Positions 17,254-61,876 of a DNA stretch of 64,000 nt are shown here, piece after piece. Position 1 is the first letter of the stretch; the number at the start of each line of letters is the position of its first letter. Where the stretch lies: the IMG/VR virus record IMGVR_UViG_3300035034_002381, positions 64,001 through 128,000 of that record; one strand, given 5' to 3'. A model generated the notes under the pieces. It was not told the DNA's origin and searched no databases. It saw only the letters and a program-made list of their open reading frames with translations. The position numbers and the translations under genes were made by a program. The stretch is from a virus. Its lineage: Duplodnaviria; Heunggongvirae; Uroviricota; Caudoviricetes.

Positions 17254-18852
17254 ATACTAAATTTCAAAGAACATTTAAACGAATCTAAAAGCGATTTCGT
17301 GGTTTATCATAATCAGTATTCAACAGCAATTAATGAGGGTGAAAAATATGCGAAAGCTAGAGGTTATGAATTAGATCAACAGGAATATTCAAATGCGTAT
17401 TTAGACGCATTCTTTAAACCTGAAGAAGGTAAGACTAAAAAGGATAGTTTTAAGCTTTTTAAAAATGATAAAGAACAAAGAAAACAACTACATGTTCAAA
17501 TATACAATCGCGGTATGAAAAAGTTTGAACTAAATATGTACATAAACAATAAAAAACTAATGAAAAGAAATCTTAAATTATTTGAAGAATTTATAAATGA
17601 ATCTTTTTGGTCTTTATCTAAATTAGGTGATAAATTCGATCAATTATTATCAAAAGAACTTAAAAAAATTAAAGGCTGCATATTTTATGTGAAAGGAAGA
17701 GATTTATATTGTAATGATGAATTACTTTTTAAAATAAATGGTGATAAAGATTCTGTAGAAAGTATTGTCAAAAAAGTTAGATTAAAGTTGAACGAATCTT
17801 TAATTAATGAAAAAGAATCTTATGAAAGAGGTTGTGCCATGCTATACTTTGAAAGTAATTGCACCAAAGAGGTTCGTGAGATGATTAAAGAAGAGGATTT
17901 ATATGTTGAGGAAGGCGATGTTTCTTTTGGTAAAGAAACAGAACCTCATTGTACTTTACTTTATGGGTTTGATAAAAAGGTAGAAGCAAATGAAGCATTG
18001 AAAATTTGTGAGAATTTTACATTTGAAGCATGTGAAGCACATAACATTTCTTTATTTGAATCTAAAAAATATGATGTTTTGAAATATGATATCAAAGGTA
18101 AAAATATTAAGGAATGTAATGAAGCCCTTTCTGATTTACCCTTTGAATCTGATTTTCCTGATTTTCACCCTCATATGACTGTTGCATATCTTCAACCAGG
18201 TAAAGGAAAGGAATATACTAAAATGATTAAAGAGTCTCATGCAAGATTGCAAGTGAATCCAGAAAAAATTGTTTATTCTCATCCTAATGGTAAGAAAGAA
18301 GAAATCCAAGTTTTAACGGAAGTTAAAGAAAATGAAAAAGATAATCCTTGCTGGGATGGTTATGAAATGATCGGTATGAAAACTAAAAATGGTAAAAAAG
18401 TTCCTAATTGCGTACCTATAGATGAATCAATTACCGAAAGTCGTGGGCCTAATAGTTTTGAACACTATTTTAAAAACGCCAAGAAAAAACTATCTAGATC
18501 CGGTTTCAAGATAAAAGAAGTTAAAGATACTTATATTAAAGATCATACTGCTATTGTTATTATTTATACTGAGTCTGGTCCAGGTGGTGGAGATAATGAA
18601 TGGATACAAATATTTTATAATACTGAGGAAGAAAGAAAGAAGATTTATAAAGAGTTTGATATCGATGAATCTGTAAGCGAAGGGAAAAAGGATGATAAAA
18701 AAGGCTGGTATAAGGATAAGAAAAAATGGAATCAGGCAAGAAAAAAACTAACTAATGTAGCCGATGACAATGAAATCTGGAGCAAAAATGCGGATGCAGA
18801 TATTATTGCCTTTTGGTATGACGAAAAAGACGAAGGTTGGGTACAAAAATAA
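17254..18852 (+). CDS. Leader-bearing polyprotein containing an Acb1/gp57B-like 2H phosphoesterase
   Basis: In-frame ATA at 17254 gives (M)LNFKEHLNES. A second leader MKRNLKLFEEFINES starts at 17560. HCTLLYG and HMTVAY are the two HxT motifs. A CWDGY...VPNCVP module follows. Confidence 0.65.
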   Translation: MLNFKEHLNESKSDFVVYHNQYSTAINEGEKYAKARGYELDQQEYSNAYLDAFFKPEEGKTKKDSFKLFKNDKEQRKQLHVQIYNRGMKKFELNMYINNKKLMKRNLKLFEEFINESFWSLSKLGDKFDQLLSKELKKIKGCIFYVKGRDLYCNDELLFKINGDKDSVESIVKKVRLKLNESLINEKESYERGCAMLYFESNCTKEVREMIKEEDLYVEEGDVSFGKETEPHCTLLYGFDKKVEANEALKICENFTFEACEAHNISLFESKKYDVLKYDIKGKNIKECNEALSDLPFESDFPDFHPHMTVAYLQPGKGKEYTKMIKESHARLQVNPEKIVYSHPNGKKEEIQVLTEVKENEKDNPCWDGYEMIGMKTKNGKKVPNCVPIDESITESRGPNSFEHYFKNAKKKLSRSGFKIKEVKDTYIKDHTAIVIIYTESGPGGGDNEWIQIFYNTEEERKKIYKEFDIDESVSEGKKDDKKGWYKDKKKWNQARKKLTNVADDNEIWSKNADADIIAFWYDEKDEGWVQK

Positions 18853-52349: not shown

Positions 52350-52598
52350 ATGGAATATGTTAAACTATACGAAGATTTTAATCCTTCAGTAAGTAGACAA
52401 AGAAATAATGAACGCAAAAAGAAATTAGTCGAAAGATATAAAAGGCGTGATGAACAAATCAAAAACACCAAAGATAAAGGAGACGAATCTAAAGCTAACT
52501 TGTATACTAAACGAAAGGAAGTTGATAGATTAGAAATCCAGAAAATTGATGTTAAAAACGAAATTATCAATATCAAGGAAAAAAGAAGAAAGAAATGA
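52350..52598 (+). CDS. Basic small protein with partial leader (MEYVKLYEDF)
   Basis: Preceded by the AATATATA promoter variant at 52338. Confidence 0.5.
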   Translation: MEYVKLYEDFNPSVSRQRNNERKKKLVERYKRRDEQIKNTKDKGDESKANLYTKRKEVDRLEIQKIDVKNEIINIKEKRRKK

Positions 52599-52843
52599 AA
52601 AAATTTGAAGAATTTGTAAACGAAAAAATAGTATTTGGTATTTATGACAAATTTAAAAATACATCGGTAGGTGCAAAAGAATTTGCTTCTGCAATCAGCT
52701 CAGATGATGATGCAGTAGAGGCGTCAATAGATTTTTTAGATGCTATGGAAATTTGGTTTAAAAAAACCCAAAAAGGAAATTGGGAAGATGTTCAACAAGA
52801 ACTAGCAGACAATATTCCTAATGATATAGAATCGTATAGATAA
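52595..52843 (+). CDS. Leader-bearing small protein (MKKFEEFVNE)
   Basis: Clear leader. Confidence 0.6.
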   Translation: MKKFEEFVNEKIVFGIYDKFKNTSVGAKEFASAISSDDDAVEASIDFLDAMEIWFKKTQKGNWEDVQQELADNIPNDIESYR

Positions 52844-52857
52844 AAATAAATAAGAAT

Positions 52858-53033
52858 ATGAAAAAATTTGAAGAATTTGTAAACGAAGGATCAACTTTCG
52901 ATAGTATCGCTGATCATTTGAGAAACAAAAAAATATCAGATGCTGTTTATAAAAAGGAACAATGTCATTATTATTAGACGATAATAGCACTCTAGAATTT
53001 ACATTTAATGACAATACTAAAATAAAAAGATAA
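52858..53033 (+). pseudogene. Leader-bearing small gene (MKKFEEFVNE), apparently frameshifted
   Basis: Stops at 52977. A -1 shift in TATAAAAAGG continues as KGTMSLLLDDNSTLEFTFNDNTKIKR* to 53033. Confidence 0.5.
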
Positions 53034-53035
53034 TT

Positions 53036-53266
53036 ATGAAATCATTTACAAAATTTGTAGAAACAACAAGATCACTTAACGAAAAGGAAGATCTAGAAAA
53101 GGAGTATAAAGAAGTCTTTGATGCTCTATTAGATAAATACGAAGTATCTTCACCCGCAGAACTTAGCGACGAAAAGAAAGCTGAATTTTTTGATGAAATT
53201 AAAAAACATTATACTGCAGGTAAAGGCGCAACCGATAAAGGCGAAGATCTTGTAGGAAAGGAGTAA
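53036..53266 (+). CDS. Leader-bearing small protein (MKSFTKFVE..SLNE)
   Basis: YKEVFDALLDKYEVSSPAELSDEKKAEFF module. Confidence 0.6.
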   Translation: MKSFTKFVETTRSLNEKEDLEKEYKEVFDALLDKYEVSSPAELSDEKKAEFFDEIKKHYTAGKGATDKGEDLVGKE

Positions 53267-54540
53267 TGCAATACGTCCACGGATATACACAATTTCTTAA
53301 TGAACAATTGATAATGGAAGGTGGCGCTTTTGGTCACCTTCATCATCCATTTGAAGATCATAGTTTAACATTTAATGATTTATCAGAAATGATAGAATTA
53401 ACTGTAACTGGAGCGTTTAATCAAAACAATTTTGTTCAAGAAAAAACTGATGGTCAAAATCTCATGTTTACATGGAAAAATGGCGAAATACGTGGTGCCC
53501 GAAGCAAGAAACATTTAAGAAATCAAGGTGAAAACTCATTATCCAAACAAGAAATAAGTCAAATGTATTCTGGTCGTGGTGAAATTTTTACAGCATTTAC
53601 AGAAGCTATTAATGATTTAGAATCAGCAATTAAAAGTCTTTCTTCTAAACAAAAAGATAGAATTTTTTCTGAAGGAAGTAAATTCATGAGTGTAGAAATT
53701 ATTACACCTATGACACAAAACACGGTACCATACGGTTTATCAATGTTAGTCTTCCATGGTACTAATGAATATGATATCGAGGGCAATGTTTTAAATCAAT
53801 ATAAAACTGAGGCTAAAATTCTTGCAGGAATGATTAAGCAAATAAACCAAGACGTACAAAATACGTTCTTTATCCGTGGTCCGCAAAATATTAATTTAGA
53901 AGCTTTACCCAATACTGCTAAAAAGAAAAATTACTATCAAGGTAAGCTACGTAAATTAGTAAATAAATACAATTTGTCTATGTCAGATTCTATACCAGAT
54001 TATTTGTATAAAGTATGGCGAGATAAAACTATTGACATTTTATCTAATAAAAATTATACAGAAGAAATAATCGATGGATTAGCTATGCGCTGGGGTAAAA
54101 AACAAAAATCATATTCAATACCTAATATCAAAAAAGATCTTGGTTCAGAATTTTCTGATTGGGTCAAAAACTTTGAAAAGCGTGGCGGAGAGTATGATAA
54201 ACTCTGGAAAGAATATATTGCACCTGTCGAAGGTTTATTTTTAGAACTTGGTGCAGATATTTTAACCAATATTGAAAGTTTCTTAACAGCAGATCAAAGA
54301 AATGCGACTGAAGAAATGCGTCAAGAAATTGAAAGTACAATAGAAAAGATTAGAAATTCTGATGATGTTACAGCTATTGAAAAGTTGGAACATCAATTAC
54401 AAAGAATTGATACAGCAGGTGGACTAAAAAGATTAGTGCCTTCTGAAGGTATTACATTTTTATATAAAGGAAAACTCTATAAATACACAGGACTATTTGC
54501 TGCTATTAATCAAATAGGTTCACTCATAAGATATAACTAA
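53266..54540 (+). CDS. Leader-bearing RNA/DNA-ligase-fold nucleotidyltransferase (KxDG)
   Basis: MQYVHGYTQFLNE leader; GGAFGHLHHPFED; motif I EKTDG; C-terminal EGITF..KYTG. Confidence 0.65.
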   Translation: MQYVHGYTQFLNEQLIMEGGAFGHLHHPFEDHSLTFNDLSEMIELTVTGAFNQNNFVQEKTDGQNLMFTWKNGEIRGARSKKHLRNQGENSLSKQEISQMYSGRGEIFTAFTEAINDLESAIKSLSSKQKDRIFSEGSKFMSVEIITPMTQNTVPYGLSMLVFHGTNEYDIEGNVLNQYKTEAKILAGMIKQINQDVQNTFFIRGPQNINLEALPNTAKKKNYYQGKLRKLVNKYNLSMSDSIPDYLYKVWRDKTIDILSNKNYTEEIIDGLAMRWGKKQKSYSIPNIKKDLGSEFSDWVKNFEKRGGEYDKLWKEYIAPVEGLFLELGADILTNIESFLTADQRNATEEMRQEIESTIEKIRNSDDVTAIEKLEHQLQRIDTAGGLKRLVPSEGITFLYKGKLYKYTGLFAAINQIGSLIRYN

Positions 54541-55394
54541 TGACAACTGTTGAAAATACGAAAGTTTTAAAAGAATTTACGCAACCTATTCTTAACTCAG
54601 ATGTTCCAGAAGTCTTGGGATTTTTGAATAAATATATTTTGCCTGAAATAGGACTATACGGATTAGATGAAGATGCAACAATAATTGGTTCTGCTGGAAA
54701 AAAGTTATTAAATCAAACCAGCGGTGATATAGATATTGCAATCTTACGAGGTTCCGTTGCTAAACATTTTGATAGGGATGATGTATTAATGGCTATACAT
54801 GAAAAACTTTCATCAATGGGATATAGAACAAATATTCAGAAAGGATTTAGTCAAGTTAACTTTGCTCTTCCAGCACCAAATGGGTTTGTTCAAGTTGATT
54901 TAATGATCACTGATAATTTGGATTGGGCAAAATTTGTTTTTCATTCTCCAGATTATACTAAATCTGAATCAAATTATAGGGGTGTCTACCGAGGAATGTT
55001 ATTAAATGCTGTTGCATCTGAAATTGTTAAAAAAACAGTCAAAAAATTAGATGGGGAAATTGAGGAATATGAACAATATGTAATACGTTCTACCTTTGGT
55101 TTATTTAAAGTACGTAAAACTCTTTTAGGAAAAAATGGTAAGCTAATCAAGACACCTAAACTTTTAGATAAATATGAGCAACGCATCTCCAATAATCCTA
55201 TTGATGCTGTAAAATTACTTTTTGGTAAAGACGTTAGAATCGATGATATAAGTACATTTGAAAAAATGTTGAATGTAATCAAGAGTCAAAAATTCTTATA
55301 TCCTGGAAAGGTTGGAATTATCAAAAATAAATTTATGTGGTATCTTGGAAAAACCAATTTAAATATACCATCAGAAATAACTAATATACCATGA
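54540..55394 (+). CDS. Pol-beta-superfamily nucleotidyltransferase
   Basis: IGSAGKK...SGDIDIA and third acidic residue in VQVDLM. Confidence 0.75.
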   Translation: MTTVENTKVLKEFTQPILNSDVPEVLGFLNKYILPEIGLYGLDEDATIIGSAGKKLLNQTSGDIDIAILRGSVAKHFDRDDVLMAIHEKLSSMGYRTNIQKGFSQVNFALPAPNGFVQVDLMITDNLDWAKFVFHSPDYTKSESNYRGVYRGMLLNAVASEIVKKTVKKLDGEIEEYEQYVIRSTFGLFKVRKTLLGKNGKLIKTPKLLDKYEQRISNNPIDAVKLLFGKDVRIDDISTFEKMLNVIKSQKFLYPGKVGIIKNKFMWYLGKTNLNIPSEITNIP

Positions 55395-55831
55395 AACATA
55401 TAAAATCATATAAAGAAATTCTTAACGAGTCTATTAATTCTCGAGTACGTTCAAAAATTGTTAAGTTACTCAAGACTCAAGGAATTCAGCATAAAGTAGA
55501 TTATGAATATTCTGCTGGACATTTTTTGGTGCCTACTATAGAAGCAGCTGAAGATATTGCTGATGCGATCGGTGATAAATTTCATGTGACTATTTTAGAT
55601 AGAAAGGGTAAAGAAGGAAATACACTTGTAATGATAACTGAAGATGTTAATGAGGCTATCGATTATATGGAAATGGATTATAATTCAAGAAAAGAAATTC
55701 TTAAAAAAACCTTTCCAGATCTTATGGAAGATTCAGTAAAAGATTACGCTTTAAAAACATTTAAAGAATTACCGCCAGAAATGCAAAAAGAAATAGCTGA
55801 ACAATATAACGTAATACTAAAAGATCAATGA
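55391..55831 (+). CDS. Leader-bearing two-module protein (MKHIKSYKEILNES)
   Basis: Leader; internal ITEDVNEA linker. Confidence 0.6.
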   Translation: MKHIKSYKEILNESINSRVRSKIVKLLKTQGIQHKVDYEYSAGHFLVPTIEAAEDIADAIGDKFHVTILDRKGKEGNTLVMITEDVNEAIDYMEMDYNSRKEILKKTFPDLMEDSVKDYALKTFKELPPEMQKEIAEQYNVILKDQ

Positions 55832-56571
55832 AAAATTTTGTAAGTTTCTCAAACTTTGTTAATGAATCTCAAAAAGATACACAGGGAAATACACCTGTCA
55901 ATATTTTGATTGGTAGATTTGATCCCTTCCATATCGGGCATTATTCTGCTGCGAAAGAATTAGTTGATAAAAATGGCTATCCTGTAGTAATTGTTTCTGT
56001 TAGAGGAAAGGGAGATTTTGGAAAGGGTACAACAGTAAGTAAAGAACTTTTTGATAAAATGGTTTCAAAGCTTGTAAAGACTGTGCCATTTATTAACGGA
56101 CACATAGAAATAACTAATGTTTCTTTTGATAAACAATTGTTTGTGAATCTTAGACCTAAGTATGAACCTGTACTTTTAGGAGCAGGCGCAGACAGAATCA
56201 AAGGATATACTGCGCAAATGAATTCTTTCAGAGACAAAAAGGGCAATGTAATTAATATGCGCCAAGATTTTGATGTAGTTCAAACTTCACGAAAAGCAAG
56301 TGGCACTGAGGTCCGTGAAATAATTTCTAAAAAAGATAAAAAGAATTTCTTAAGATTAATGCCTAAAGAACTTCATAATTTTTGGGATGAACTGGTCAAA
56401 GAACTTAATGAGACAAAAAGACCATTATCTTACCATATTGATATATATGATAAGGCCATACAAAAATTGGTAGAAAGTAAGAAAAAAGATAACAAAACTA
56501 TTTCAACAATAGAAAGATTAATAGTGGAGAAGACTAAACTAATCCAAAATTATTCTGATCTTATTAAGTAA
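55828..56571 (+). CDS. Leader-bearing HIGH-motif cytidylyl/adenylyltransferase-like protein
   Basis: MKNFVSFSNFVNES leader; IGRFDPFHIGH; GAGADR; ASGTEVR. Confidence 0.8.
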   Translation: MKNFVSFSNFVNESQKDTQGNTPVNILIGRFDPFHIGHYSAAKELVDKNGYPVVIVSVRGKGDFGKGTTVSKELFDKMVSKLVKTVPFINGHIEITNVSFDKQLFVNLRPKYEPVLLGAGADRIKGYTAQMNSFRDKKGNVINMRQDFDVVQTSRKASGTEVREIISKKDKKNFLRLMPKELHNFWDELVKELNETKRPLSYHIDIYDKAIQKLVESKKKDNKTISTIERLIVEKTKLIQNYSDLIK

Positions 56572-56576
56572 AAGAC

Positions 56577-58358
56577 ATGCCAGGAATAAAGAAATTAGAC
56601 AGAATTTATCAATCAGACGGATTGATCGAAGCTAAAAAACATTTAGAAGGTAACATAACGATTACTGAAAAATTGGATGCTCATAGATTTTCGTTTCAAG
56701 TAAATGAAGATAAAAAAGTTTCGTATTATAAGAAAAACGATAATCGTGAGATTTCTAAAATTGATCGGATTATTACTGATTTATATGAGCGAGCAATAGT
56801 TCATATCGAATCTTTACCTAAGTCTATTCTTAAAAACATTCCTAAAAATACGAGGTTTGGATTTTCATATTTTCCGAATCAGAAACCTCTTAGAATAAAA
56901 TATTCAAAAATTCCAGAAAGCAGATTAGTACTAACTGATATATCATCAAGATCTGATGTAGGTAAAGTCCGCAAGGTTTATGAAGATCAAAAATATTTAG
57001 ATAATTGGGCAGATATTCTTAAAGTTTCTAAGCCCCCAATAATTTTTCAGGGTGTACTTGAAGAAAATCAAAGAGATCATATTCTTAATCTTGTGAAGGG
57101 AACAGATTCTACTGTTGCGTTTTTCTCACAACATATCGAGGGAATATTTGAAAAAACATTTTCTGGCAATAACATTATTGAGGCGCTAGTTTTCAAAAAT
57201 AAAAATGGCTTAACTCAATTAAGGGATCCATCATATAAAATTTTTAATGAAGCTGCTCGACCTACAGTTAGTCGGGATTTTTATGACTTGACAATTATAC
57301 AAATTCAAGAATTCATGGAGAATTATGAATTCGGTATTTTTCGAGATAATCTTTCAGAAAATGAACGATATATCAATTTAATATCTGATGCATATAACAA
57401 ATTTATTGATGCCGATTTAATCGATGAAAATTTTAATCCTGAGTTTCTTAAACCTAATATTATTGGCACGCATGGTTGTTTAGGACGCAAATTTATCAGA
57501 AATAACGAAACTCTTCAAAAAATAAATAGATCAGCTTTAAACGAGGAACTATTTAAAGTATTTTTGATTAGTCTACATCGTAAAAAATCTCCTCATGGAT
57601 TATTGAATCAAAGCATAATCAACAGTTTTAATCAGACTATCGAAAAAATTCAAGAAAGTATAAGTGCAAATGATGGCGAGGGTCTTCTTTCGTATCATGA
57701 AACTATTAAAATTCTCGAGGGTAATAACGTTAAATTAGACGATCAACAACCTAATTATATCAAGGTAGTTTCTTCATTACAAAAATCATTCAATAAAGAA
57801 ATTAAACATAAAGAAATTGAGCCTTTACCTAAAGCTATATGTATTATTGGCAAATTCGATTTTATTACAAAAAAACATATAGATTTAATCGAAGGATTTT
57901 CGGCAGAAAATGTAATCATTGTCAATCTTTCTAAAAAGAAGTTGAAATTATCTAAAGAACTTTTTCAACTTGAGGATCGTGAGGTTGATAAAATACTTAA
58001 ATCTTTACAAGATGAAAACGATAACATTAAAGAAATTGTTAATTGTTCATATTATTCTCTTGAAAAGATTTTTTACAAAGTTAGAAAAGTGGGATATGAA
58101 CCGATTAATTTTTATGTAAATGAAAAATCAATTGCTAATTATTCGATTCAATATAATACGATCAAACATATTTTAGGTGATCGTTTAAAAATCTCAAAGG
58201 ATTTTGATATCTCTGGTTTTTCTATTGATGATAAGCGCACTATTTTCAGATCAATTGAAGATGATGATTATGTAAAATTTAAAGAAGTCTCACCTAAAAT
58301 TCTTAAGAACTTCTGGGAGATATATAAATCCAGATATAACATTTGGAAAAAAGAATAA
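56577..58358 (+). CDS. Fusion of degenerate ligase-fold domain and degenerate HIGH-transferase domain
   Basis: ITEKLDAHRF (KxDA instead of KxDG), IEALVF and IGKFDFITKKH (HIGH lost). Confidence 0.6.
   Translation: MPGIKKLDRIYQSDGLIEAKKHLEGNITITEKLDAHRFSFQVNEDKKVSYYKKNDNREISKIDRIITDLYERAIVHIESLPKSILKNIPKNTRFGFSYFPNQKPLRIKYSKIPESRLVLTDISSRSDVGKVRKVYEDQKYLDNWADILKVSKPPIIFQGVLEENQRDHILNLVKGTDSTVAFFSQHIEGIFEKTFSGNNIIEALVFKNKNGLTQLRDPSYKIFNEAARPTVSRDFYDLTIIQIQEFMENYEFGIFRDNLSENERYINLISDAYNKFIDADLIDENFNPEFLKPNIIGTHGCLGRKFIRNNETLQKINRSALNEELFKVFLISLHRKKSPHGLLNQSIINSFNQTIEKIQESISANDGEGLLSYHETIKILEGNNVKLDDQQPNYIKVVSSLQKSFNKEIKHKEIEPLPKAICIIGKFDFITKKHIDLIEGFSAENVIIVNLSKKKLKLSKELFQLEDREVDKILKSLQDENDNIKEIVNCSYYSLEKIFYKVRKVGYEPINFYVNEKSIANYSIQYNTIKHILGDRLKISKDFDISGFSIDDKRTIFRSIEDDDYVKFKEVSPKILKNFWEIYKSRYNIWKKE
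58319..58326 (+). promoter_or_regulatory. GATATATA candidate late promoter
   Basis: Inside the end of the upstream ORF, 38 nt before ATG 58365. Confidence 0.4.
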
Positions 58359-58364
58359 AAAAAC

Positions 58365-59315
58365 ATGAAAAATATTAGATCATTTCGAGAATTTGAAGCT
58401 TTAACCGAAGCTAAGAAATTTTATACTACAAAGGATATTGTAAAAATGGCAAAAAATGCTGGTGATATTGTCATAGATGCCAAATACGCAATTGAGGATT
58501 TGGGAGTAGCTTATGGAAATAAAGTACCATCAACTGAATTGGATAGAGTTTTGACTCAATATGATTTAGAATTAGAAGATTTAAATGAGGGTCGTAAAAA
58601 AATCCAACTTAAAAGAAAATATGGAGAACGTTCTGCAGTTACCGCCGGTAAGCGTGCACCTGTCAGAGATAGGATATTAGGAAAAATCGCTGAGTCTGAA
58701 GAAGGCAGAATGTCCAGAAGTTCATTACAAGCATTTATCGCATCCACAAACGAAGATTCAGGTAGAAAAACCACTTTTTCATGGGTCCGAAAAAACTCAC
58801 GATATTTTAAAACTGTTAAAGAATCTGGTACAACATACTATAAATTAAGTATGTATGGTAAGCGTGCACTAAAGCGCGGAAATCTTAATGAATCTGAATC
58901 TTTAAATGAAGGACAGTTTTCTTGGTTGACTCAAGATGGTGGGACTCAAATTGGAAGTGAAAGAAAAAATACTATAACCGTTTATATGTTTGATGACAAA
59001 GGAAATAAATGGGAAGAAAGAAGTTATGAGGGTTATGGAGAATTTGGTGGAAAAGATTATTTTGATCTTTTAGCTGAAATGAATGGTTATTCTCAAGAAG
59101 ATGCTAAAAGTAAAAGTCGTAAAATAGGCGAAGATCTTCGCGAAATAGGTATTGATCTAATGTATGATAAAGGTATTAAACCTAAAAATGGTGGTAAGGT
59201 ATTATTTCCAGCTTTAGTTTCAAATAAAAATTACAATTGGAAACGACACGATTTTACAAAACAACCCGAATACGATCCTAACCAAGGTTGGTATACTGAA
59301 GATTACGGTTGGTAA
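58365..59315 (+). CDS. Leader-bearing three-module polyprotein (MKNIRSFREFEALTE)
   Basis: Modules separated by LTE|A, LNE|G and LNESESLNE|G. Confidence 0.6.
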   Translation: MKNIRSFREFEALTEAKKFYTTKDIVKMAKNAGDIVIDAKYAIEDLGVAYGNKVPSTELDRVLTQYDLELEDLNEGRKKIQLKRKYGERSAVTAGKRAPVRDRILGKIAESEEGRMSRSSLQAFIASTNEDSGRKTTFSWVRKNSRYFKTVKESGTTYYKLSMYGKRALKRGNLNESESLNEGQFSWLTQDGGTQIGSERKNTITVYMFDDKGNKWEERSYEGYGEFGGKDYFDLLAEMNGYSQEDAKSKSRKIGEDLREIGIDLMYDKGIKPKNGGKVLFPALVSNKNYNWKRHDFTKQPEYDPNQGWYTEDYGW

Positions 59316-59328
59316 AAAAACAAATATT

Positions 59329-59790
59329 ATGAAAAAATTTAATGAAACTGAAGCAAGTCCAGTAAATACTCCAGGTATGGGAAATGTTGTTCCAGGAGAA
59401 GTAGGATCTGGTGATGATTTTGGTGATGAAGAAGAAGAAGAAAAAGTTCGCCGAAAAAGACTTAAAAATCTTAGAACATTTGAAGAATTTGAAACAGCAG
59501 GTATCAACGAGGGTAGAACATATGAGGGACGGCCAATAACTCCTTCAATTTATACTACTGCTGATATTAGAAAACCTATCACTAAGAGATCACAGCTTAA
59601 AGATGGCATGAATGTTATGATATTAGACCATGGATTAAACCAATGGATAGCTTATATGAGATATATCGGATTTGAACAATTTATGCATAAATTTAATTCT
59701 GCTAGCCAATATGAAGACATGGTTTTCGATTATTCGACAGAAGAATTAGAAGATGCTATTAAGAATGGCGAGATTCTTATGATGAAATAA
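59329..59790 (+). CDS. Leader-bearing two-module protein (MKKFNE; internal LKNLRTFEEF..INE)
   Basis: NTPGMGNVVPG..GSGD module followed by a second, internal leader. Confidence 0.55.
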   Translation: MKKFNETEASPVNTPGMGNVVPGEVGSGDDFGDEEEEEKVRRKRLKNLRTFEEFETAGINEGRTYEGRPITPSIYTTADIRKPITKRSQLKDGMNVMILDHGLNQWIAYMRYIGFEQFMHKFNSASQYEDMVFDYSTEELEDAIKNGEILMMK

Positions 59791-60484: not shown

Positions 60485-61876
60485 ATGATAGTAGATATTT
60501 CTCAAGAATTAGGAAAGTTAGAAGTCTCTTATATCGGTGAAGAAGGTGAACTTAGACTTTTACAATTAGATATTCCAGCCAGCGAACAGTATATTTGGGA
60601 TTATGTAAATCCTTCGCAGCGCAAAGATCCAAATTTTAAAAGCTGGGATAATAAACCAGTAAAGAAAACCAAAAGTAAATTTCTTAACAAATATAGGATT
60701 CAGGAATTTCTTTTGAATCAACCTAAACACATAAAGGATAAGTTATATGCAAAACATTTACCTAAAATGTTTTTCTGTGATATTGAAACTGAGGTAACAG
60801 ATGATGGATTCCCAGAACCCAAACAAGCAAAAAACGCAGTTACAGCAATAGCGTTTTCAACAGGAAATAAAATCATTGCTTTGGGTACAAAGAAATTAAC
60901 AACCAATGAAATTCTTGGAATTAAAGAAAAAATTAATGTTTATTTCAAAGATTTCAGATCCGAAATAGATTTTAATTATCTTTATTTCGAAACAGAATTT
61001 GATATGCTTTATTCTTTTATGGGTAAAGCAACTCATAAAATGCCGTTAATTACAGGATGGAATTTTATACGATTTGACTGGGAATATTTATTGAATCGTT
61101 GTAAAAGATTAAATATTGATCCAGCAATATCATCACCTAGAAATGAACTTACGTATAAGAACTTACCATTACATAGAATTATAGTCGATTACTTAGAAAT
61201 TTATAAAAAGTGGGATAAAAGTATTGACGTTAAGGAAAACAATAGTCTTAACTTCGTGTCACAAGAAGTTCTAGGTATTAAAAAGATTAATTATTCTGGT
61301 AGTCTTCAAGATTTATATGAACAAGATTTCGCAAAGTATATTTATTATAATGCTGTTGATACTTATCTGGTTCAATTAATTCACGAAAAACTACAGACTA
61401 TTCAAACATTTTTTACTTTAGGAATTTTAACAGGCGTCGAATTACAAAAAGTTTATTCGCCAATTAATATGGCAGAAACAGCGATGCTGGCCGAATTCTA
61501 TAAGCGTGGATGTATTTTTCCTAGGGTTAAAAAATCTAATGATAACGAGAAAAAGGGTTATAAGGGTGCATTTGTATTTAAACCCAAACCTGATATGTAT
61601 GAATGGATAGCTGCGTTTGACTTTGCATCACTATATCCTTCTATTATGAGACAGTTTAACATTTCTCCAGAGAATTATATCAAAAACATAGAACCAGGAG
61701 AAGAAATAGAAGCAGGTCAAGTAGTAACTAAATCTGGAGCTGTGTTCGATGATACTGAAGATAGTGTTTTCAGAACTGTTCTTACTGAATATTATGCAAA
61801 AAGAAAGGAAGCTAAAAGTGAAATGTTTGCCATTGAACAGGAAATTGATTTCTTAAAAAAATATATACATCAATAA
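60485..61876 (+). CDS. Family B DNA polymerase, N-terminal part only (exonuclease plus motif A)
   Basis: CDIETE, GWNFIRFD, YNAVD and DFASLYPSI present. Ends after KRKEAK with no KxxxNSxYG or YGDTDS. Confidence 0.88.
   Translation: MIVDISQELGKLEVSYIGEEGELRLLQLDIPASEQYIWDYVNPSQRKDPNFKSWDNKPVKKTKSKFLNKYRIQEFLLNQPKHIKDKLYAKHLPKMFFCDIETEVTDDGFPEPKQAKNAVTAIAFSTGNKIIALGTKKLTTNEILGIKEKINVYFKDFRSEIDFNYLYFETEFDMLYSFMGKATHKMPLITGWNFIRFDWEYLLNRCKRLNIDPAISSPRNELTYKNLPLHRIIVDYLEIYKKWDKSIDVKENNSLNFVSQEVLGIKKINYSGSLQDLYEQDFAKYIYYNAVDTYLVQLIHEKLQTIQTFFTLGILTGVELQKVYSPINMAETAMLAEFYKRGCIFPRVKKSNDNEKKGYKGAFVFKPKPDMYEWIAAFDFASLYPSIMRQFNISPENYIKNIEPGEEIEAGQVVTKSGAVFDDTEDSVFRTVLTEYYAKRKEAKSEMFAIEQEIDFLKKYIHQ

What the first reader, a model, noticed from the sequence alone, without database searches (positions are those of the whole stretch)
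53266..58358. Three-fold nucleotidyltransferase cluster (ligase-fold KxDG + Pol-beta DxD + HIGH transferase), partly leader-tagged
Seen: one tightly coupled run encodes a ligase-fold protein (EKTDG), a Pol-beta NTase (GS...GDID...D), a HIGH transferase (RFDPFHIGH) and a fusion carrying both ligase-like and HIGH-like domains. The first and third have clear leaders. Known: these three folds catalyse NMP transfer by different routes (Lys-adenylate, two-metal DxD, NTP activation of small phosphates). Inference: a dedicated multi-step nucleotidylation pathway delivered at infection. Options are RNA/tRNA end repair, synthesis or decoying of a nucleotide signal, NAD-related recycling, or CDP-donor formation plus LicD-like transfer. 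I know of no assigned substrate for this combination.
Basis: partly seen in the sequence, partly recalled or inferred. Interest (0 to 1): 0.85.

Follow-up and report, generated by a model that had tools for sequence, protein, structure and literature searches.

The report
Capsid-tagged phage RNA-ligase/nucleotidyltransferase repair kit
A large uncultured T4-like phage carries a tightly packed, widely conserved set of four nucleotide-transfer enzymes, three of them tagged for loading into the virus head in this family; it most likely forms an untested RNA (tRNA) repair kit that is injected ready-made with the DNA.

Summary
Five translationally coupled genes lie at 53266-58358:

- A (424 aa) is a new family with an RNA-ligase fold and all ligase motifs invariant.
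- B (284 aa) is a Pol-beta-type nucleotidyltransferase.
- C (146 aa) is an orphan.
- D (247 aa) is an intact HIGH nucleotidyltransferase.
- E (593 aa) is an Rnl2-like ligase domain joined to a D paralogue with a decayed HIGH motif.

A, C and D carry a T4-type capsid-targeting leader, and the genome encodes a gp21-type head protease.

The set is not a chance neighbourhood. Of 19 contigs found through E alone, 14 also hold B, 14 hold D (two as a fusion to A) and 10 hold A. In 36 of 36 larger relatives the A domain is fused behind a HIGH domain. That fusion often also carries a polynucleotide-kinase-like domain (20 of 36), sometimes an HD domain (4) and once a CCA-adding enzyme.

My best reading (about 0.55) is an RNA end-healing and sealing kit, partly delivered from the capsid. 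The role of the ever-present HIGH enzyme is unexplained, and it is the novel part. No activity has been tested.

Other agents of this scan noted the same module on other DNA (e1-5323235, e1-3862038). I found no paper describing it.

The parts
53266..54540 (+). Gene A, 424 aa. An RNA-ligase-fold covalent nucleotidyltransferase of a new, phage-only family. The nucleotidyltransferase domain is split by a helical insert of about 185 residues (about aa 205-390).
   Evidence: Model pLDDT 85.3. Foldseek top hits are Trl1, Rnl3 and T4 Rnl1, probability 0.97-0.99. VIA Z 8.2 to Naegleria Rnl and 7.8 to T4 Rnl1, with about 185 residues aligned across aa 20-418. K60, D62, G63, E144, F163, H164, G165, E394, G395 and K406 are invariant in 48 homologues. 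More than 1000 homologues exist, none named. No Pfam, PHROG or NCBIfam hit.
53266..53319 (+). Leader of A (aa 1-18) with two (L/I)xE sites, FLNE and LIME. The predicted mature N-terminus is GGAFGH.
   Evidence: Sequence. Most of the 48 aligned standalone A homologues begin with a comparable leader, and all but two or three have Glu directly before an invariant GGAxGH.
53440..53454 (+). Motif I of A (EKTDG). K60 is the predicted nucleotidyl-accepting lysine.
   Evidence: Invariant column. In relatives L073 and L074 a split intein sits exactly between this K and T.
54540..55394 (+). Gene B, 284 aa. A Pol-beta-superfamily nucleotidyltransferase with no leader in this phage.
   Evidence: G50, S51, G53, K54, S61, G62, D63, D65, Q118 and D120 are invariant in 30 homologues. 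The Atlas's own model (pTM 0.82) has neighbours with NTP_transf_2 (TM 0.77) and with DNA pol beta palm and thumb. It is not RlaP, PolyA_pol or the pol-beta palm by profile. Orthologues mostly start with a leader followed by E|GG or E|SG.
55391..55831 (+). Gene C, 146 aa. A leader-tagged orphan (ILNE at aa 10-13) of unknown function.
   Evidence: no family hit, and no homologue in the related loci.
55828..56571 (+). Gene D, 247 aa. A leader-tagged HIGH (PF01467) nucleotidyltransferase with an intact HxGH motif and SGTxxR motif.
   Evidence: Pfam E 1.8e-5, 25.4 bits against a cut-off of 21. G29, R30, F31, P33, H35, H38, S158, G159, T160 and R163 are invariant across standalone and fused relatives. 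NMNAT-type models match only at the motif level (20.5 bits against a cut-off of 127).
56577..57671 (+). E, N-terminal part (aa 1-365). An Rnl2-like ligase domain plus a helical domain. Motif I is EKLDA (Lys kept, Gly replaced by Ala) and motif IV is IEALVF.
   Evidence: Model pLDDT 85.6. Foldseek to T4 Rnl2: E 3.7e-7, probability 1.00. The motif I lysine is kept in 34 of 41 family members and is N or Q in the rest. The family has 289 cluster representatives.
57819..58358 (+). E, C-terminal part (aa 415-593). A paralogue of D with a PPAT/NMNAT-like fold and degenerate catalytic motifs (GKFDFITKKH, and no SxTxxR).
   Evidence: BLASTP against D: E 2e-9. hhalign 99.9% probability. Foldseek to PPAT: TM 0.65 by target. 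Distant family members keep GRFQPF(H/T)xGH and ISATxVR.
52595..53266 (+). Upstream leader-tagged small genes (52595-52843 and 53036-53266). Context only: part of the same cargo array.
58365..59790 (+). Downstream leader-bearing genes (58365-59315, and 59329-59790 with an internal leader). Context only.

Best explanation
The cluster is a split version of a widespread, phage-only RNA end-healing and sealing machine.

Predicted roles:
- A and the N-terminal part of E are ATP-type RNA ligases. They would join broken RNA, most plausibly tRNA cut by host anticodon nucleases.
- B would add back one or a few nucleotides to a trimmed 3' end, as RlaP and CCA-adding enzymes do.
- An unlinked kinase plus HAD-phosphatase protein elsewhere in the genome would heal the ends.
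- D, the HIGH enzyme that accompanies these ligase domains in every A fusion and most E-anchored loci examined, performs an unknown step that uses NTP and a phosphate. It might activate an RNA phosphate end or make a dinucleotide cofactor.

A and D in this phage, and B as well in relatives, carry a T4-type capsid-targeting leader. They are probably loaded into the head, trimmed by the gp21-type protease and injected with the DNA. Repair could then start before any phage protein can be made. E has no leader and would act from within the infected cell.

Shown: the folds, the motifs, the fusions, the synteny, the leader and the protease gene.
Inferred: the substrate, the order of steps, packaging and injection.
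For: Folds and catalytic residues:
- A and the N-terminal part of E have RNA-ligase folds with catalytic residues conserved.
- RNA ligases rank above DNA ligases for A (Z 8.2-7.0 against 6.7 and below).
- In the A model motif V is followed only by a short helix, so there is no OB domain.

Fusions and linkage:
- Every one of 36 upstream parts of larger A-domain proteins holds PF01467. Twenty also hold an AAA_33/Zeta P-loop kinase, four hold HD, and one holds a complete CCA-adding enzyme.
- The nearest solved relatives of the fused kinase are L-seryl-tRNA(Sec) kinase (E 1.9e-4), entries 4MDE/4GP6/4GP7 (E 4e-4 to 9e-4) and Pnkp1 of the Pnkp1-Rnl-Hen1 complex. From memory, 4MDE/4GP6/4GP7 are the Clostridium thermocellum Pnkp kinase domain. 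NadR is not among the matches.
- This genome encodes a homologous kinase (hhalign 93.5% probability) fused to a HAD/NT5C-like domain.
- Of 19 contigs anchored on E alone, 14 have B, 12 have a standalone D, two more have D fused to A, and 10 have A. The order is the same in all of them.
- A 462-kb phage keeps the order uvsW, A (with leader), E, gp43 N-terminal part.
- Microcystis phage Mel-JY01 has a HIGH-A fusion.

Leader and packaging:
- The leader is conserved on A, B and D across families and is never on E.
- A PF03420 head protease is encoded in this genome.
- In cyanophage S-SZBM1 the D-like cytidylyltransferase gp140 (hhalign 94.9% probability; it starts MRFRQFIIE) was detected in purified virions by mass spectrometry (PMC9146016).

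Known precedent:
- Pairing of RNA ligases with Pol-beta nucleotidyltransferases in RNA repair is established for RlaP (PMC7824862, PMC12776372).
Against: - No enzyme activity has been tested for any member.
- No described RNA repair pathway uses a HIGH nucleotidyltransferase, so the central, most conserved partner has no assigned step.
- A, B and E match no curated RNA-ligase, RlaP or CCA profile.
- The held 173.5 kb is about 60% of the genome. It gave no Pfam hit to Tpt1, HD or a CCA enzyme, and only a weak 2H hit.
- The HAD domain of the kinase protein is below the Pfam cut-off and looks like a nucleotidase.
- The cluster lies inside an array of unrelated leader-tagged genes, so adjacency alone is weak evidence.
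- T4 polynucleotide kinase and Rnl2-type ligases also act on DNA or hybrid substrates, so a DNA-end role is not excluded.
- In this phage B and E lack the leader. The whole pathway therefore cannot run from injected protein alone.
Confidence: 0.55

Rival explanations
1. A DNA-end or nick repair kit for the injected genome. A and the N-terminal part of E would seal nicks or join ends of the phage DNA (or of RNA-DNA hybrids). B would act as a minimal Pol X-like gap filler. The proteins would travel with the DNA so that they act at entry.
For: - The structural neighbours of B include DNA pol beta palm and thumb clusters.
- DNA ligases are also among A's matches (Z 5.3-6.7).
- A and, in relatives, B are capsid-tagged, so they would sit next to the DNA.
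- Pairs of a ligase with Pol X are known in viruses such as ASFV (own knowledge).
Against: - RNA ligases outrank DNA ligases for both A and E.
- There is no OB domain.
- One relative is fused to a tRNA-specific CCA-adding enzyme, and many are fused to kinases nearest to tRNA or RNA kinases.
- This reading gives the HIGH enzyme no role either.
Confidence: 0.13
2. An NAD-centred module. D and the fused HIGH domains would be NMN adenylyltransferases, and the fused kinase a nicotinamide-riboside kinase, giving a NadR-like logic. They would rebuild NAD+ during NAD-depleting defence, and the ligase-fold domains would use or depend on that NAD+.
For: - GRFQPFHxGH and SGTxxR resemble archaeal NadM-type NMNAT.
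- The best NCBIfam hits of D and of the fused HIGH domains are NMNAT models.
- Kinase plus HIGH is the domain pair found in NadR.
- A PRPP-synthetase-like gene sits next to the genome's kinase-HAD gene.
- Phages are known to rebuild NAD+ (PMC9503650).
Against: - The NMNAT scores are far below the cut-offs (20-30 bits against 127-181) and cover little more than the HIGH motif.
- The kinase matches PSTK and Pnkp, not NadR.
- No nicotinamide phosphoribosyltransferase is adjacent.
- The ligase folds lack the NAD-specific domain Ia of LigA-type enzymes (own knowledge, not tested here).
- This reading does not explain B or the CCA-adding fusion.
Confidence: 0.12
3. Synthesis or decoying of a nucleotide signal, or another small-molecule nucleotidylation such as CDP-donor formation with LicD-like transfer. 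This would be delivered as anti-defence cargo.
For: - Pol-beta nucleotidyltransferases include signal synthases.
- HIGH enzymes activate small phosphates.
- The module lies among leader-tagged genes, a class that other notes of this scan link to anti-defence cargo (unchecked).
Against: - There is no CD-NTase, LicD or SMODS profile or structural hit for B.
- Ligase-fold enzymes with all five motifs are polynucleotide enzymes.
- The fusions are to RNA-end enzymes.
Confidence: 0.07
4. There is no joint function. These are unrelated cargo genes that sit together only because they lie in a hyperplastic array of leader-tagged genes.
For: In relatives A, D and B are separated by several unrelated leader-tagged genes, and the order differs from this phage.
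Against: - Fusions exist in every pairing: HIGH-A (36 of 36), ligase-HIGH (the E family), and B-fold proteins with PF01467 or DUF6267 (Atlas).
- The genes co-occur in contigs anchored independently on E.
- A and E are adjacent in a phage with only 27-31% protein identity.
Confidence: 0.05

Closest known systems
T4 Pnkp + Rnl1 (and Rnl2) tRNA repair; fungal Trl1; bacterial Pnkp/Hen1 and Pnkp1-Rnl-Hen1
   Same: - Lys-nucleotidyl ligase fold with motifs I, III, IIIa, IV and V.
- Association with a polynucleotide-kinase-like P-loop domain and a phosphoesterase: fused in relatives, unlinked here.
- A phage setting.
   Different: - A and the N-terminal part of E match no Rnl1 or Rnl2 profile.
- A has a helical insert of about 185 residues and an invariant GGAxGHxxHP N-terminus.
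- A HIGH nucleotidyltransferase accompanies the ligase domain in every A fusion and most related loci examined, which no described repair system has.
- The enzymes carry a capsid-loading leader, whereas the T4 repair enzymes are made after infection (own knowledge).
RlaP (PF10127), the RNA-ligase-associating Pol-beta nucleotidyltransferase, and CCA-adding enzymes
   Same: B is a Pol-beta-superfamily enzyme encoded next to RNA-ligase-fold genes in phages. RlaP adds one or two nucleotides to damaged RNA 3' ends (PMC12776372).
   Different: B gives no hit to PF10127 or PF01743, and its activity is untested. B relatives occur in Lak megaphages.
Archaeal NadM-type NMNAT and PPAT (HIGH / PF01467 nucleotidyltransferases)
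   Same: The GRFxPFHxGH and SGTxxR motifs and the Rossmann fold. PPAT is the best structural match for the paralogous domain in E.
   Different: Scores are far below the equivalog cut-offs. The domain is fused to ligase domains rather than to Nudix, and the fused kinase is not NadR-like.
T4 capsid targeting sequence of internal proteins IPI, IPII and IPIII (Mullaney & Black 1996; PMC3012670)
   Same: An N-terminal peptide of about 10-18 residues of the type MKxxxxFxEF(I/V)xE, ending in an (L/I/V)xE protease site. A gp21-family protease is present.
   Different: Here the tag sits on enzymes of 250-450 residues and on whole conserved enzyme families. Cleavage and packaging are not shown for this phage.
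Cyanophage 'cytidylyltransferase' with DUF6267 (for example S-SZBM1 gp140 and gp141)
   Same: - A D-like HIGH enzyme with a leader, found in the virion proteome (PMC9146016).
- It lies next to a protein of about 400 residues with KWDG near the N-terminus and EGFVA near the C-terminus, the same motif layout as A.
   Different: A is not detectably DUF6267. The cyanophage gene is treated in the literature as an auxiliary metabolic gene of unclear function.

Membership tests
Covalent nucleotidyltransferase (ligase/capping) superfamily: gene A | Motif I KxDG with the nucleotidyl-accepting lysine | tested here: met
   EKTDG at aa 59-63. K60, D62 and G63 are invariant in 48 homologues.
Covalent nucleotidyltransferase (ligase/capping) superfamily: gene A | Motifs III, IIIa, IV and V in order | tested here: met
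   SVEII (E144), VFHG (F163, H164, G165), EGITF (E394, G395) and KGKLYKY (K406) are all invariant or nearly so.
Covalent nucleotidyltransferase (ligase/capping) superfamily: gene A | Nucleotidyltransferase fold | tested here: met
   The top 40 VIA rows are ligases: Z 8.2 and rmsd 4.2 over 184 residues for Naegleria Rnl, Z 7.8 for T4 Rnl1. Foldseek probability is 0.97-0.99. The Z values are moderate, so the call rests on fold and motifs together.
Covalent nucleotidyltransferase (ligase/capping) superfamily: gene A | Self-nucleotidylylation on the lysine | not testable with these tools
   Needs purified protein with labelled ATP, GTP or NAD+.
Rnl1 (PF09511) / Rnl2 (PF09414) RNA ligase families: A and the N-terminal part of E | Match to the curated family profile | tested here: not met
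   No hit in Pfam scans of the proteins or in six-frame scans of the genome at E up to 10. The N-terminal part of E resembles Rnl2 only by structure.
Pol-beta nucleotidyltransferase superfamily: gene B | The hG[GS] x9-13 Dh[DE]h signature plus a third carboxylate | tested here: met
   GSAGKK, SGDIDI and VQVDLM. G50, S51, D63, D65 and D120 are invariant in 30 homologues.
Pol-beta nucleotidyltransferase superfamily: gene B | Pol-beta fold | tested here: inconclusive
   Only the Atlas's own model was compared: TM 0.77 to an NTP_transf_2 cluster and 0.47-0.48 to pol-beta thumb clusters. I made no model and ran no PDB search for B.
RlaP (PF10127) and CCA-adding / PolyA_pol (PF01743): gene B | Match to the curated profile | tested here: not met
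   No match at E up to 10 (RlaP) or up to 0.1 (PolyA_pol). hhalign to a phage CCA domain aligns only the GS...D.D motif, E 0.077.
HIGH / cytidylyltransferase-like (PF01467): gene D | HxGH motif, SxTxxR motif and a profile score above the cut-off | tested here: met
   HIGH at aa 35-38 and SGTEVR at aa 158-163. The score is 25.4 bits against a cut-off of 21.
NMN adenylyltransferase (TIGR01527 / PRK01153): gene D | Score above the equivalog cut-off | tested here: not met
   16.7 bits against 181.2, and 20.5 bits against 127. The match covers about 30 residues around the HIGH motif.
HIGH nucleotidyltransferase: C-terminal domain of E | Catalytic HxGH and SxTxxR | tested here: not met
   The domain has GKFDFITKKH and no SxTxxR, although it is homologous to D (hhalign 99.9%). 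Distant family members keep both motifs.
T4-type capsid targeting sequence cargo: A, C and D | N-terminal leader ending in an (L/I/V)xE site | tested here: met
   FLNE and LIME (A), ILNE (C), FVNE (D). About 17 such N-termini occur genome-wide. The leader is conserved on the A, B and D families.
T4-type capsid targeting sequence cargo: A, C and D | A gp21-family prohead protease is encoded | tested here: met
   PF03420 scores 48.3 bits against a cut-off of 27 at G000:C1:17162-17539.
T4-type capsid targeting sequence cargo: A, C and D | The protein is found in virions with the leader removed | not testable with these tools
   The only indirect support is that a D-like enzyme of cyanophage S-SZBM1 was detected in virions (PMC9146016).
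DUF6267 (PF19782): gene A | Match to the profile | tested here: not met
   No hit. hhalign and BLASTP against S-SZBM1 gp141 are not significant, although motif I aligns in register.

The most novel reading that the evidence does not exclude
A and its obligatory HIGH partner form a new two-enzyme chemistry on RNA ends. For example, the HIGH domain might adenylylate an RNA 5'- or 3'-phosphate (or make a special dinucleotide donor), and the ligase-fold domain would then use that product. The enzymes would be pre-loaded in the capsid so that a phage can restore translation in a cell whose tRNAs are already cut. This would be an injected repair machine, which is not known for any virus.
Probability: 0.2. 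Interest if true: 0.88.

Novelty: new variant of a known kind. Interest (0 to 1): 0.7.

Why it matters
- The A family alone has more than 1000 members in aquatic phage sequences and carries no name, no Pfam model and no paper that I could find.
- A HIGH nucleotidyltransferase accompanies every A-domain fusion and most related loci examined, which points to a step in nucleic-acid end chemistry that current repair schemes do not contain.
- If the leader does load these enzymes into the head, phages inject repair enzymes as well as inhibitors. That would change how tRNA-cutting defences and their counter-measures are understood.
- It would also re-label the cyanophage 'cytidylyltransferase' now listed as an auxiliary metabolic gene.
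- The enzymes may be useful as new RNA ligases.

Tried and rejected
- Structure-based complex prediction of mature A with mature D gave no verdict. It counts neither for nor against binding.
- Sequence searches of A, B and E against Pfam, PHROGs, NCBIfam and PDB sequences gave nothing significant.
- hhalign of the A family against the E family is not significant (E 0.072). It aligns motif I only, so A and the N-terminal part of E are not close paralogues.
- The idea that the virion protein gp139 of S-SZBM1 is A-like was rejected.
- A alignment against DUF6267 was not significant.
- A scan of 185,579 species genomes for A found only five contigs from metagenome-assembled genomes. The family therefore looks phage-only, and there is no cellular operon context to borrow.
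- The held genome fragment gave no Pfam match to Tpt1, HD, CCA-adding enzyme, Rnl1 or Rnl2. The fragment is about 60% complete, so absence is not shown.
- The first search of viral contigs with E as a single protein found nothing. An alignment of close homologues was needed.
- Literature searches for the combination of RNA ligase with cytidylyltransferase in phages, and for DUF6267, found no paper.

Full report
**Setting.** The window is bases 64001-128000 of a 173.5-kb IMG/VR virus record with 31.5% G+C, estimated about 60% complete. The genes around the finding are T4-like. They include gp32, a GIY-YIG homing endonuclease, a UvsW-type helicase, a MazG-like pyrophosphatase, the N-terminal half of a family B DNA polymerase and NrdB.

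**The observation.** Five genes run head to tail on the + strand:
- A, 53266-54540
- B, 54540-55394
- C, 55391-55831
- D, 55828-56571
- E, 56577-58358

They are joined by TAATG, ATGA and ATGA overlaps and then a 5-nt gap.

**Gene A.**
- A has no hit in Pfam, PHROGs, NCBIfam or PDB sequences. It nevertheless has 1039 homologues at E up to 0.001, none of them named.
- In an alignment of 48 homologues, K60, D62 and G63 (motif I), E144 (III), F163, H164 and G165 (IIIa), E394 and G395 (IV) and K406 (V) are invariant. So is an N-terminal GGAxGHxxHP block.
- The AlphaFold model has pLDDT 85.3.
- Its best Foldseek matches are Trl1 ligase domains, archaeal Rnl3 and T4 Rnl1, with probability 0.97-0.99.
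- VIA-align gives Z 8.2 to the Naegleria nick-sealing RNA ligase, 7.8 to T4 Rnl1, and 7.4-7.2 to REL1, Trl1 and Rnl2. DNA ligases follow at 6.7 and below.
- The aligned residues span aa 20-418, so the nucleotidyltransferase domain is interrupted by a helical insert of about 185 residues. No OB domain follows motif V.
- The Z values are moderate. The assignment rests on fold, complete motifs and a uniform hit list taken together.
- A is therefore a new family in the ligase superfamily, closest in shape to RNA ligases.

**Gene E.**
- The model has pLDDT 85.6 and shows two domains joined by a disordered linker at aa 366-413.
- The N-terminal part matches full-length T4 Rnl2 (E 3.7e-7, probability 1.00). 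The C-terminal part matches phosphopantetheine and NMN adenylyltransferases (TM 0.65 by target).
- The C-terminal domain is a paralogue of D: BLASTP E 2e-9 and hhalign 99.9% probability.
- The E family has 289 cluster representatives.
- Distant members keep EKLDG, IEGIVF, GRFQPF(H/T)xGH and ISATxVR.
- In the subclade of this phage the HIGH and SxTxxR motifs have decayed. Here they read GKFDFITKKH, and there is no SxTxxR. The ligase lysine is kept, in EKLDA.
- In other members the reverse holds. For example, the 462-kb phage LR756500 has ENLDG with an intact HIGH domain.
- E is thus half decayed, not a double pseudo-enzyme.
- E is not a close paralogue of A (hhalign E 0.072).

**Gene D.**
- D passes PF01467.
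- It shares invariant GRFxPxHxxH and SGTxxR with both standalone and fused relatives.
- NMNAT models are its best named matches, but they fall far below their cut-offs and cover little more than the HIGH motif.

**Gene B.**
- B has an invariant GS, DxD and D signature.
- The Atlas's own model of it (pTM 0.82) lies near clusters that carry NTP_transf_2, pol-beta palm and thumb, and fusions to PF01467 and DUF6267.
- It is not RlaP, PolyA_pol or the pol-beta palm by profile.
- I did not fold B, so its subfamily is open.

**Linkage.**
- Among 80 viral contigs found through A, most A domains are the C-terminal end of proteins of 1000-1600 residues.
- In 36 of 36 upstream parts there is a PF01467 domain. 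Twenty also have an AAA_33/Zeta P-loop kinase, four have an HD domain and one has a complete CCA-adding enzyme.
- The fused kinase is nearest, among solved proteins, to L-seryl-tRNA(Sec) kinase, to entries 4MDE/4GP6/4GP7 and to Pnkp1. NadR is not among its matches. From memory, 4MDE/4GP6/4GP7 are the Clostridium thermocellum Pnkp kinase domain.
- Microcystis phage Mel-JY01 has a HIGH-A fusion of 639 residues.
- Nineteen contigs were found independently through E. Of these, 14 hold B (usually directly upstream of E), 12 hold a standalone D, two more hold D fused to A, and 10 hold A. The order is always A, D, B, E. The two contigs with no partner have almost no upstream sequence.
- In LR756500 the order uvsW, A, E, gp43 N-terminal half is the same as here, at 27-31% protein identity.
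- Standalone D proteins match the C-terminal domain of E better than they match the HIGH domains of A fusions. In L074 a D gene precedes an E that has no HIGH domain. D therefore looks like a split-off or replacement of E's own HIGH domain.

**Leader.**
- About 17 proteins of the genome start with the pattern MKxxKTFxEF(I/V/L)NE. This is close to the T4 capsid targeting sequence MKTYQEFIAE (own knowledge; PMC3012670).
- A gp21-family protease gene is present.
- Most of the 48 aligned standalone A homologues carry such a leader, and all but two or three have Glu directly before the invariant GGAxGH.
- Most B homologues have (L/I)xE before GG or SG. The D homologues in related loci have the leader. 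No E homologue does.
- In this phage B has lost its leader.
- In the fusions, the junction before the A domain reads LLE, LIE, LTE or LLM followed by GG. This is compatible with protease release or an internal start.
- Cyanophage S-SZBM1 gp140 is homologous to D (hhalign 94.9% probability) and starts MRFRQFIIE. It was the one enzyme found by mass spectrometry in purified virions (PMC9146016).
- The neighbour gp141 is DUF6267. It has KWDG near its start and EGFVA near its end, the same layout as A, but homology to A is not demonstrable.

**Interpretation.**
- Ligase-fold domains fused or linked to a polynucleotide-kinase-like domain, a phosphoesterase, a CCA-adding enzyme and a Pol-beta nucleotidyltransferase are the parts list of RNA healing and sealing. 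This is known from T4 Pnkp/Rnl1, Trl1, Pnkp/Hen1 and the ligase-RlaP pairs (PMC7824862, PMC12776372).
- This genome also encodes, 28.5 kb before the window, a kinase homologous to the fused one (hhalign 93.5% probability). It is joined to a HAD/NT5C-like domain, which is the T4 Pnkp layout.
- Other agents of this scan reported a Ro60-like protein with tRNA-like RNAs and many tRNA genes in the same genome. I did not check these.
- I therefore favour RNA, probably tRNA, repair at about 0.55.
- Packaging would solve a real problem. A phage cannot translate repair enzymes if the tRNAs are already cut.
- The HIGH enzyme has no place in any described repair scheme. HIGH enzymes couple an NTP to a phosphate or carboxylate, so activation of an RNA phosphate end or supply of a dinucleotide cofactor are the natural guesses. 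Both are untested.

**Rivals.** The alternatives are:
- a role on the injected DNA's ends or nicks;
- an NAD-rebuilding role;
- small-molecule or signal chemistry;
- mere co-location in a cargo array.

The fusions argue strongly against the last.

**Novelty.** I found no paper on this module or on DUF6267. The cyanophage gene is discussed only as an auxiliary metabolic gene of unclear function. Other agents of this scan noted the same module on other DNA. That is neither independent evidence nor publication. I class the module as a new variant of a known kind, RNA repair, with a real chance that the ligase-HIGH pair is a new chemistry.

Noticed in passing
L074:6378-8162 and L073:7995-9779: In two related contigs the A gene is broken exactly between the K and the T of the catalytic KTDG motif. 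The first ORF ends ...VQEK followed by CLSPGT... and then a stop. A second ORF begins with about 42 residues ending ...ILVHN and continues TDGQQ... This looks like a naturally split intein (trans-splicing) at the active-site lysine.
   Followed up: partly
G000:C1:34123-36457 (L082:591-2457), about 28.5 kb before the window: A PRPP-synthetase-like or phosphoribosyltransferase-like gene (299 aa) lies directly upstream of a gene for a P-loop kinase joined to a HAD/NT5C-like domain (324 aa). The kinase is homologous to the kinase fused to HIGH-A proteins in other phages. The pair could belong to RNA end healing or to nucleotide or NAD salvage.
   Followed up: partly
L093:8390-10671 (Synechococcus phage S-SZBM1 gp140 and gp141): The cyanophage 'cytidylyltransferase' seen in virion proteomics has a T4-like leader. 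It sits next to a DUF6267 protein whose KWDG...EGFVA layout suggests that DUF6267 is itself a ligase-fold family.
   Followed up: partly
L110 and L111: 7233-11095 (from contigs of 425 kb and 115 kb): Another arrangement: one protein with a leader, a HIGH domain and an A domain (652 aa) is followed by an E that consists of the ligase-like half only (365 aa).
   Followed up: no
window 60485-61876: The family B DNA polymerase ORF stops after the exonuclease domain and the start of the polymerase domain. The next gene is nrdB. The same break occurs in the 462-kb phage LR756500 (L085:13007-14425), so the split is conserved and is not an assembly error.
   Followed up: partly
Prevotella Lak megaphages (for example MK250021.1:534687-535466): B has 30-32% identical relatives in all Lak megaphage genomes, which are unannotated there.
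   Followed up: no
window 17299-18852: A leader-tagged multi-module protein gives a weak match to the 2H phosphoesterase family PF13563 (E 0.0013, below the cut-off). A 2H domain could be the cyclic-phosphate-opening step of RNA repair or an anti-signal enzyme.
   Followed up: partly
L094:6114-10506: One relative has two tandem full-length E paralogues, plus a separate 220-residue protein like the C-terminal domain of E, and a B gene.
   Followed up: no
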